This document shows, piece by piece, positions 43,098 to 43,216 of a stretch of 43,216 bases of DNA; position 1 is the stretch's first letter, and every line of letters begins with the position of its first letter. The stretch lies in the UHGV virus genome UHGV-0353264. The stretch is one strand, 5' to 3'. Made by a program: the position numbers and the translations under genes. Below the pieces are notes generated by a model, which was given only the letters and a program-made list of their open reading frames with translations, made no database searches and had not been told where the DNA came from. This DNA comes from a virus.

Positions 43098-43114
43098 TCA
43101 CACATATCACAATT
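43098..43114. other. attR core (prophage right junction)
   Basis: Second copy of the 17-bp tcacacatatcacaatt (identical to 909-925). Confidence 0.6.
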
Positions 43115-43144
43115 GATGCATTTTTTAGTGATTAACAGCGCCAT
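43115..43144 (-). pseudogene. yfhL: Displaced original 5' fragment of yfhL (first 16 codons)
   Basis: Minus-strand ATG at 43144; with the core it reads [16 protein letters not shown] then runs into phage DNA (IK-stop). Differs from the reconstituted gene start [23 protein letters not shown] -10 lies 36 nt upstream (43180-43185). Confidence 0.6.
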
Positions 43145-43216
43145 AAGGAAACTCTCAAAACAACACAAACCGGGCGGGCATTATACGCGCATTCTTTACT
43201 CAGACCAGTTTTTTCA

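What the first reader, a model, noticed from the sequence alone, without database searches (positions are those of the whole stretch)
43098..43216. attR carries the original yfhL 5' fragment and its promoter, now driving into phage cargo
Minus strand of 43115-43144 plus the core encodes [16 protein letters not shown], the K-12-type N-terminus as recalled, preceded by a TATAAT hexamer (43180-43185 on the minus strand). After the core the frame enters phage DNA and terminates. The host promoter therefore fires into the right-end cargo genes (42624-43055, 41918-42565) on the same strand, possibly giving them constitutive expression in the lysogen.
Basis: partly seen in the sequence, partly recalled or inferred. 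Interest (0 to 1): 0.55.

Follow-up and report, generated by a model that had tools for sequence, protein, structure and literature searches.

The report
Prophage right junction inside yfhL
This is the right-hand junction of a prophage inserted into the E. coli ferredoxin gene yfhL: the displaced gene start and its conserved promoter do point into the phage, but the adjacent phage genes carry promoter signals of their own (the first with a DNA-damage/LexA operator), so this is an ordinary junction rather than clear host-driven cargo expression.

Summary
On the minus strand, 43144..43097 encodes [16 protein letters not shown]. It matches K-12 yfhL except for one synonymous base, then reads IK-stop (43090..43088). 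TATAAT lies at 43185..43180, 15 nt after the yfhH stop. A 17-bp core (43098-43114 = 914-930) bounds a ~42-kb prophage. Its left end supplies a surrogate 5' end that restores an 86-aa yfhL.

The TATAAT is very probably a real -10. It is conserved 41-49 nt before yfhL in nearly all Enterobacterales loci with an adjacent yfhH.

- The nearest gene is 88 aa (42624..42890), not 143 aa.
- It has its own conserved promoter-like TTGACT-17-GACCAT, followed by the only exact LexA-type palindrome in the window (42905-42920).
- The same signals precede its homologues in Salmonella, Citrobacter and Escherichia prophages at other chromosomal sites.
- The 215-aa gene sits in a swappable cargo slot, has its own TATAAT, and is a stand-alone gene elsewhere.
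- Between the host promoter and these genes lie ~200 untranslated nt with a strong hairpin and a C-rich, G-poor stretch.

Host read-through is possible but neither required nor shown. This is a known kind of junction at a known integration site.

The parts
43200..43216 (-). 3' end of host yfhH (MurR/RpiR regulator); stop TGA at 43202..43200
   Evidence: RefSeq annotation of identical or near-identical DNA; alignment to K-12
43203..43208 (-). Best candidate -35 (CTGGTC, 17-nt spacer) of the yfhL promoter; a poor match lying inside yfhH
   Evidence: Read; not called by the consensus scan
43180..43185 (-). TATAAT, the probable -10 of the native yfhL promoter, followed by a GC-rich GCCCGCCC stretch
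   Evidence: exact TATAAT at -41..-49 in nearly all loci with adjacent yfhH, and also in Gilliamella and a Pasteurellaceae locus
43088..43144 (-). Truncated yfhL' mini-ORF: 16 native codons ([16 protein letters not shown]), then IK and a stop, behind the native ribosome-binding region
43098..43114 (.). attR copy of the 17-bp core AATTGTGATATGTGTGA
   Evidence: Alignment A1
914..930 (.). attL copy of the 17-bp core
695..955 (-). Reconstituted yfhL (86 aa): phage-supplied codons 1-10 ([11 protein letters not shown]2S and K8R relative to K-12), shared core, then host codons
1170..2567 (+). Tyrosine integrase, 465 aa, of a yfhL-targeting family (69% nt identity to Serratia phage OS31; 65-68% aa identity to copies beside yfhL in Morganella and Erwinia)
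2564..2764 (-). Small HTH protein (66 aa), probable excisionase
   Evidence: annotated as excisionase at the same position in OS31
1030..1049 (.). LexA-type box TACTGTATGTTGATCCAGTG in the divergent region between int and the phage-borne yfhL' start
   Evidence: CTG[GT]-N8-ACA[GC] conserved at the same place in five related elements (A5)
42990..43087 (.). Phage arm of attR: repeated (A)ATGTGTT / TGTGTTG motifs and an inverted copy CAGCAACACA. These are candidate integrase arm sites and fold as a ~23-bp hairpin in RNA.
   Evidence: z = -3.4
42899..43016 (-). C-rich, G-poor untranslated stretch (C up to 35%, G 10%, C/G 3.4); a rut-like candidate for Rho loading on read-through RNA
   Evidence: top 0.3% of 78-nt windows; largely unpaired in the fold
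42947..42952 (-). TTGACT, the -35 of the 88-aa gene's own promoter
   Evidence: Invariant CTTGACT at -60..-63 from the ATG in six distinct upstream variants
42924..42929 (-). GACCAT, a -10-like hexamer 17 nt after TTGACT (GAnnAT/GATAGT/GAATAA in relatives)
42905..42920 (.). CTGTACATAATCACAG, a LexA (SOS) box 3 nt after the -10-like hexamer and 15 nt before the ATG
   Evidence: The only exact CTGT-N8-ACAG in 43 kb (0.43 expected); arms conserved and spacer variable in relatives
42624..42890 (-). 88-aa gene of unknown function; the conserved last gene of this prophage family, next to the attachment site
   Evidence: PGAP; PHROG 17793 matches only residues 56-143 of the 143-aa ORF; 1-nt indels upstream of the ATG in relatives; 59 homologues, mostly 87-88 aa
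42607..42612 (-). TATAAT 41 nt before the 215-aa gene (TTCTCC 16 nt upstream); candidate own promoter at the edge of the swappable cargo slot
41918..42565 (-). 215-aa cargo gene (N-terminal hydrophobic segment, no family match); widespread in Enterobacterales, also found as a stand-alone gene

Best explanation
The region is attR of a ~42-kb temperate phage whose tyrosine integrase recombines within codons 11-16 of yfhL. Integration moves the native yfhL promoter region (conserved TATAAT with a GC-rich downstream stretch), ribosome-binding site and first 16 codons to the right junction. There they form an 18-codon dead-end ORF. The phage left end supplies a surrogate start that restores an 86-aa yfhL. 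Transcripts from the displaced promoter, and read-through from yfhH, must enter the phage arm of attR. The genes they meet are autonomous. The 88-aa terminal gene has its own sigma-70-type promoter with a LexA operator over the predicted start site, so it is inferred to be repressed in undamaged lysogens and induced by DNA damage. The 215-aa gene occupies an exchangeable cargo slot and has its own -10. Host read-through would first cross ~200 untranslated nt containing a long hairpin and a C-rich stretch that favours Rho termination, and then a LexA-occupied operator. It is therefore inferred to add at most a low background. Shown: junction anatomy, conservation of both promoter motifs, gene boundaries, and independence from the integration site. 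Inferred: promoter activity, LexA control and Rho attenuation.
For: Junction and core. Population frequency. Integrase and Xis. yfhL -10 conservation; reporter activity cited in PMC2984482. 88-aa gene boundary. Its TTGACT-17-GAnnAT plus CTGT-N8-(A/C)CAG at fixed positions in six upstream variants. Unique exact palindrome in the window. Homologues sit at other sites (beside SPI-5 pipA, a cytochrome bc1-type operon, yccA, gtrABC), with a terminator-like hairpin and an antisense tRNA-like fragment on the host side. The own-promoter motifs are intact in yfhL-integrated relatives at 93-99% identity. Cargo slot exchange starts right after the 88-aa stop. The 215-aa gene is stand-alone, with a TATAAT upstream, in Enterobacter. 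Hairpin and C-rich leader. Parallel case: the attR-proximal dinI-like gene of Serratia phage OS31, in the same integrase family, has an annotated LexA site.
Against: No transcript data exist for this locus. No mapped yfhL start site could be retrieved from eight papers' supplements. No intrinsic terminator lies between the host promoter and the genes, so read-through is physically possible. The -10-like hexamer of the 88-aa promoter is weak (GACCAT, 3/6), so upstream transcription could matter. The rut-like stretch is a compositional inference only, and similar C/G ratios occur elsewhere in the window. LexA binding is untested.
Confidence: 0.62

Rival explanations
1. One reading: the captured yfhL promoter is the main driver of the 88-aa and 215-aa genes and gives them constitutive expression in the lysogen.
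For: Same strand and orientation. A conserved and probably active -10. No intrinsic terminator detected. A weak -10 in the 88-aa gene's own promoter.
Against: The 88-aa gene keeps its own conserved promoter-like motif and LexA box, and it occurs at non-yfhL sites where no host promoter reads into it. The 215-aa gene is autonomous elsewhere. The gap is 200 untranslated nt with a hairpin and a C-rich stretch.
Confidence: 0.2
2. The TATAAT is not an independent promoter. yfhL is transcribed only as part of a yfhH-yfhL unit, so what enters the prophage is yfhH read-through under yfhH regulation.
For: The intergenic region is only 55 nt with no terminator. The -35 is poor and the consensus scan makes no call.
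Against: Exact TATAAT is kept at constant distance from the yfhL ATG while its distance from the yfhH stop varies from 4 nt to more than 70 nt. It is also present in Gilliamella and a Pasteurellaceae locus that lack an adjacent yfhH.
Confidence: 0.1
3. Transcription from the displaced promoter matters for the junction itself rather than for the cargo. For example, it could disturb integrase/Xis assembly on the attR arm, or occlude the LexA-controlled promoter.
For: The transcript must cross the arm-type repeats and the 88-aa promoter.
Against: Purely topological; there is no comparative or experimental support. Relatives at other sites lack an inward-facing host promoter and keep the same arm-proximal gene.
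Confidence: 0.05

Closest known systems
Serratia phage vB_SspS_OS31 (MT843276)
   Same: The integrase region is 69% identical at DNA level. The record begins at an annotated attachment site inside a phage-borne yfhL start ([15 protein letters not shown]). Xis lies next to int. The gene nearest the other genome end reads inward from the junction and has an annotated LexA site.
   Different: It is a Hendrixvirinae siphovirus of Serratia. Its end gene is dinI-like, and the 88-aa family shows no similarity to it.
Intragenic integration with reconstitution of the target gene: e14/phage 21 at icd, and dusA-specific integrases (recalled from general knowledge, not tested here)
   Same: The element carries a surrogate end of the target ORF, so the gene stays intact and a dead fragment is left at the other junction. 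As recalled, the dusA elements also replace the 5' end and therefore the promoter.
   Different: The target here is yfhL codons 11-16. Membership of those integrase families was not tested.
LexA-controlled accessory operons in prophages: dinI-antirepressor loci of the Gifsy phages (PMC3121763)
   Same: A small gene outside the immunity region sits behind a LexA box, which plugs it into the SOS response. That paper notes terminator-like palindromes upstream that insulate the promoter.
   Different: This phage's repressor has a Peptidase_S24 autocleavage domain, so an antirepressor is not needed. The 88-aa protein has no detectable similarity to DinI. No intrinsic terminator lies upstream.
yfhL as a prophage integration site (Bobay et al. 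2013, PMC3603311; Stx2b prophages, PMC12029490)
   Same: The same host gene is reported as occupied by prophages.
   Different: Bobay et al. list yfhL among genes disrupted by integration. Here the ORF is restored at attL.

Membership tests
attL/attR pair of a tyrosine-integrase prophage that restores its target gene | Identical core sequence at both ends of the element | tested here: met
   17-bp AATTGTGATATGTGTGA at 914-930 and 43098-43114
attL/attR pair of a tyrosine-integrase prophage that restores its target gene | Flanks are contiguous in genomes that lack the element | tested here: met
   K-12 alignment; 5266 of 5426 genomes uninterrupted
attL/attR pair of a tyrosine-integrase prophage that restores its target gene | Integrase (and excisionase) next to one junction | tested here: met
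   PF00589 and PHROG integrase hits; 66-aa HTH gene at 2564..2764
attL/attR pair of a tyrosine-integrase prophage that restores its target gene | Element-borne surrogate end gives a full-length ORF | tested here: met
   86-aa ferredoxin ORF at 695..955 with 4Fe-4S Pfam hits
attL/attR pair of a tyrosine-integrase prophage that restores its target gene | Arm-type integrase-binding repeats | tested here: inconclusive
   TGTGTTG(C) repeats in both arms, conserved in related elements; binding not testable
Sigma-70 promoter of yfhL | -10 hexamer at a suitable distance from the gene | tested here: met
   Perfect TATAAT, conserved across genera
Sigma-70 promoter of yfhL | -35 hexamer | tested here: not met
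   CTGGTC (2/6) or TGGTCT (3/6); no call by the scan
Sigma-70 promoter of yfhL | Mapped transcription start or measured activity | not testable with these tools
   No start site found in accessible supplements; only a qualitative reporter citation
LexA-repressed (SOS) promoter, 88-aa gene | CTGT-N8-ACAG palindrome | tested here: met
   42905-42920, the only exact match in the window
LexA-repressed (SOS) promoter, 88-aa gene | Operator overlaps the promoter or start site | tested here: met
   It begins 3 nt after the -10-like hexamer of TTGACT-17-GACCAT; the start site is predicted, not mapped
LexA-repressed (SOS) promoter, 88-aa gene | Conserved upstream of orthologues | tested here: met
   Six distinct upstream variants keep the arms at -29/-30 and TTGACT at -60..-63
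LexA-repressed (SOS) promoter, 88-aa gene | LexA binding and induction by DNA damage | not testable with these tools
   Needs EMSA, or reporters in lexA(Ind-) strains
Host-promoter capture (cargo expressed from a host promoter at the junction) | Host promoter oriented into the element on the cargo strand | tested here: met
Host-promoter capture (cargo expressed from a host promoter at the junction) | No terminator between the promoter and the cargo | tested here: inconclusive
   No intrinsic terminator, but a strong hairpin plus a C-rich untranslated stretch
Host-promoter capture (cargo expressed from a host promoter at the junction) | Cargo lacks promoters of its own | tested here: not met
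   Conserved promoter and LexA box for the 88-aa gene; TATAAT and stand-alone occurrence for the 215-aa gene
Host-promoter capture (cargo expressed from a host promoter at the junction) | Junction-spanning transcripts | not testable with these tools
   No expression data accessible
DinI family (for the 88-aa protein) | Sequence or profile similarity to DinI | tested here: not met
   hhalign probability 0.2% against the OS31 dinI-like protein; no Pfam hit

The most novel reading that the evidence does not exclude
Integration performs a reciprocal promoter swap with regulatory consequences. The ancient, conserved yfhL promoter is donated to the prophage and supplies a low constitutive level of the terminal 88-aa protein and the cargo. 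Meanwhile the restored host ferredoxin gene comes under a phage-supplied upstream region containing a conserved LexA-type box (1030-1049), which would draw yfhL into the SOS regulon in lysogens. On excision the two promoters swap targets again, so expression of the 88-aa gene would report the integrated versus the excised state.
Probability: 0.1. Interest if true: 0.55.

Novelty: new member of a known kind. Interest (0 to 1): 0.3.

Why it matters
The result corrects how this locus should be read. yfhL is listed in the literature as a gene disrupted by prophages, but here it is rebuilt at the left junction. About 3% of complete E. coli genomes have the locus split, and most of those share this right-end flank. 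The analysis also shows that a host promoter facing into a prophage does not by itself mean host-driven cargo expression. In this case the terminal gene carries its own conserved SOS-type control wherever the phage family integrates. The 88-aa gene, the exchangeable cargo slot behind it and the LexA-type boxes on both arms of the attachment site are concrete, testable features of a common enterobacterial prophage family.

Tried and rejected
- Mapped yfhL transcription starts: I searched the supplements of eight transcriptome papers. Nothing usable was held, and one hit was only an orthologue table.
- attP from free phages: the closest 'phage' records (vB_EcoM-611R5 and others) are prophage excerpts that include the host genes yfhH, pgpC and tadA, so they gave no attP.
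- Function of the cargo: Pfam, PADLOC and PHROGs gave nothing for the 215-aa protein and only an unnamed PHROG for the 88-aa protein.
- Structure of the 88-aa protein: the AlphaFold2 model is low confidence (pLDDT 62.7). The Foldseek search of the PDB and a profile search of PDB sequences found nothing significant.
- 88-aa protein as DinI, recombination directionality factor or antirepressor: DinI was rejected. The directionality-factor idea was set aside because an Xis-like gene lies beside int. The antirepressor idea was set aside because the repressor has a Peptidase_S24 domain.
- 143-aa GTG-start ORF: rejected.
- Other checks: no tRNA or Rfam family in the right end. No intrinsic terminator by the consensus scan. 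No exact-consensus LexA 20-mer within 3 mismatches.
- Not examined: the ~37 split-yfhL genomes that have a different attR flank.

Full report
**1. The observation.**
Reading the minus strand, ATG 43144 opens [16 protein letters not shown] (43144..43097). Two phage-derived codons (I, K) and TAA (43090..43088) follow. TATAAT is at 43185..43180.

Alignment with MG1655 shows that 43216..43098 is the yfhH 3' end, the 55-nt intergenic region and yfhL codons 1-16, with a single synonymous difference. Homology breaks after AATTGTGATATGTGTGA. The same 17 bp recur at 914-930. There they join a phage-supplied start ([10 protein letters not shown]...) to the rest of host yfhL, giving an intact 86-aa ferredoxin ORF at 695..955.

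A 465-aa tyrosine integrase (1170..2567) and a 66-aa Xis-like HTH gene (2564..2764) sit inside attL.

Among 5426 complete E. coli genomes, 5266 have the uninterrupted yfhH-yfhL sequence and 160 have it split. 123 share this attR flank. yfhL is already on record as a prophage site (PMC3603311, where it is listed as 'disrupted'; PMC12029490 for Stx2b prophages).

**2. Is the TATAAT a promoter?**
RefSeq annotation puts the yfhH stop at 43202..43200. Any -35 therefore lies inside yfhH and is poor (CTGGTC), and the consensus scan does not call the site.

I could not retrieve a mapped start site from any accessible supplement. PMC2984482 states that promoter activity of the yfhL 5' region was reported qualitatively in the Zaslaver reporter library, and that yfhL mRNA was seen by RT-PCR.

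The best evidence obtainable here is comparative. In 80 yfhL loci from one genome per species, nearly every locus with an adjacent yfhH has an exact TATAAT starting 41-49 nt before the ATG, usually as GCG-TATAAT-GCCCGCCC. The genera include Escherichia, Klebsiella, Enterobacter, Kosakonia, Kluyvera, Buttiauxella, Citrobacter, Cedecea, Serratia, Yersinia, Pantoea, Erwinia and Mixta. This holds although YfhH drops to 62-67% identity and the distance from the yfhH stop ranges from 4 nt (Enterobacter) to more than 70 nt (Kluyvera). The motif is also present in Gilliamella and a Pasteurellaceae locus without an adjacent yfhH. I therefore accept it as the probable native -10.

**3. What lies downstream.**
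- PGAP annotates 88 aa from ATG 42890.
- PHROG 17793 covers only residues 56-143 of the longer ORF.
- Close relatives carry 1-nt indels in the C-run upstream of that ATG.
- Most of the 59 homologues found are 87-88 aa long.

Between the mini-ORF stop (43088) and ATG 42890 lie 197 untranslated nt. They contain:
- repeated (A)ATGTGTT / TGTGTTG motifs with an inverted copy, which also occur in the attL arm and in related elements. These are probably integrase arm sites, and they fold as a ~23-bp RNA hairpin (z = -3.4).
- a C-rich, G-poor, largely unpaired stretch (C 35%, G 10%, C/G 3.4; top 0.3% of 78-nt windows).

No intrinsic terminator was detected.

**4. The terminal gene has its own control region.**
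Homologues of the 88-aa protein occur only in Escherichia, Salmonella and Citrobacter. They are always the last gene of a prophage, reading inward from the junction. However, the prophages sit at other sites: beside SPI-5 pipA, beside a cytochrome bc1-type operon, beside yccA, and beside a gtrABC cluster. In the aligned examples the host side ends with a terminator-like hairpin and a tRNA-like 3' fragment in antisense orientation. ARAGORN finds no complete tRNA there.

In six distinct upstream sequence variants the following are fixed relative to the ATG:
- CTTGACT at -60 to -63;
- a 17-nt spacer;
- a GAnnAT-type hexamer (GACCAT here; GAACAT, GATAGT, GAATAA, GAATAT elsewhere);
- 3-4 nt later, CTGT-N8-ACAG (CCAG in one variant) at -29/-30.

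The palindrome arms are conserved while the spacer varies. In the window this palindrome (42905-42920) is the only exact CTGT-N8-ACAG in 43 kb (0.43 expected by chance).

This is the signature of a LexA-repressed promoter. It is fully retained in the yfhL-integrated relatives 21KM1392 and 611R5. The same logic appears in Serratia phage OS31, which has a related integrase and a phage-borne yfhL start. Its junction-proximal gene (dinI-like) has an annotated LexA site.

LexA-controlled accessory genes in prophages are well known, for example the Gifsy dinI-antirepressor loci (PMC3121763).

The function of the 88-aa protein remains unknown:
- it has no Pfam or PADLOC hit;
- it is not DinI-like;
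- the structure model is low confidence and has no structural match.

The phage repressor has a Peptidase_S24 domain and an Xis-like gene lies by int. Antirepressor and directionality-factor roles are therefore not called for.

**5. The second gene.**
Homology with relative 611R5 stops a few bases after the 88-aa stop codon, and a different 282-aa gene follows there. Other relatives carry HicAB plus a glycosyltransferase, an IS element, a small ORF plus an acyltransferase, or an invertase at this position. This is an exchangeable cargo slot.

The 215-aa gene (41918..42565) has TATAAT at 42612..42607, 41 nt before its ATG. The 88/215 pair moves as a unit in Salmonella. The 215-aa family is widespread in Enterobacterales. 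In Enterobacter it is a stand-alone gene behind a 455-nt gap that contains a TATAAT. It has no family assignment.

**6. Mechanism and verdict.**
Shown:
- the junction anatomy;
- the displaced, conserved yfhL -10;
- the dead-end 18-codon ORF;
- the correct gene boundaries;
- the autonomous, conserved control region of the terminal gene;
- the independence of that gene from the integration site.

Inferred:
- the displaced promoter (plus yfhH read-through) transcribes into the attR arm;
- the untranslated, C-rich leader and a LexA-bound operator limit how much RNA reaches the genes;
- the 88-aa gene is SOS-induced from its own promoter;
- the 215-aa gene has its own promoter.

The functional claim of constitutive, host-driven cargo expression is possible but is neither needed nor favoured by the comparative evidence. 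It remains experimentally untested.

**7. Novelty.**
The kind is familiar: intragenic integration with reconstitution of the target gene, a remnant fragment at the other junction, and LexA-controlled accessory genes. The site itself is already reported. The new details are:
- the restoration of yfhL;
- the conserved terminal SOS-type gene with a cargo slot behind it;
- LexA-type boxes on both arms of the attachment site (1030-1049 as well).

These details leave open a reciprocal promoter-swap reading, which I rate as unlikely but testable.

Noticed in passing
window 1030-1049: LexA-type box TACTGTATGTTGATCCAGTG between the integrase gene and the phage-borne yfhL start. CTG[GT]-N8-ACA[GC] sits at the same place in Serratia phage OS31 and in elements beside yfhL in Morganella, Erwinia and Dryocola. 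This suggests SOS control of int and/or of the restored yfhL.
   Followed up: partly
window 41261 (gene 40276..41343, minus strand): The Acyl_transf_3 (O-antigen acetylase-like) cargo gene has a TGG-to-TAG nonsense change at codon 28. It is the only difference from the intact 355-aa gene of strain A37, so the gene is probably inactive in this genome.
   Followed up: yes
window 5749..6510 (minus strand): A 253-aa protein with a CAP12/Pycsar-type TIR domain lies in the early region of the prophage. It is a candidate anti-phage defence gene.
   Followed up: no
window 41833-41878: A 46-bp match (91-93% identity) to unannotated non-coding DNA of phages HK97 and HK106, just downstream of the 215-aa gene. 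It may be a relic of module exchange.
   Followed up: no
loci L037, L041, L053, L059 (Serratia, Entomohabitans, Erwinia, Kosakonia): yfhH and yfhL are separated by 0.7-1.7 kb of extra DNA, and three of the four (not L037) have a phage-type yfhL N-terminus (S2 and/or R8). These are probably remnants of yfhL-targeting elements. L039 (Morganella) and L047 (Erwinia) have a 65-68% identical integrase beside yfhL.
   Followed up: partly
locus L004 (GenBank ON470588, 'Escherichia phage vB_EcoM-611R5'): This deposited 'complete phage genome' includes the host genes yfhH, pgpC and tadA beyond attR. It is therefore a prophage excerpt, not a packaged genome.
   Followed up: yes
window 421-501 (plus strand): The shoB type I toxin ORF (MTDCRYLIKRVIKIIIAVLQLLLLFL) lies downstream of and convergent with yfhL, as in K-12. 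It confirms the host context of the left flank.
   Followed up: partly
proteins P0001-P0011: Metagenome gene callers mostly record the 88-aa gene as a 140-145-aa product, using the non-coding GTG extension. The same mis-call was made in the finding.
   Followed up: yes
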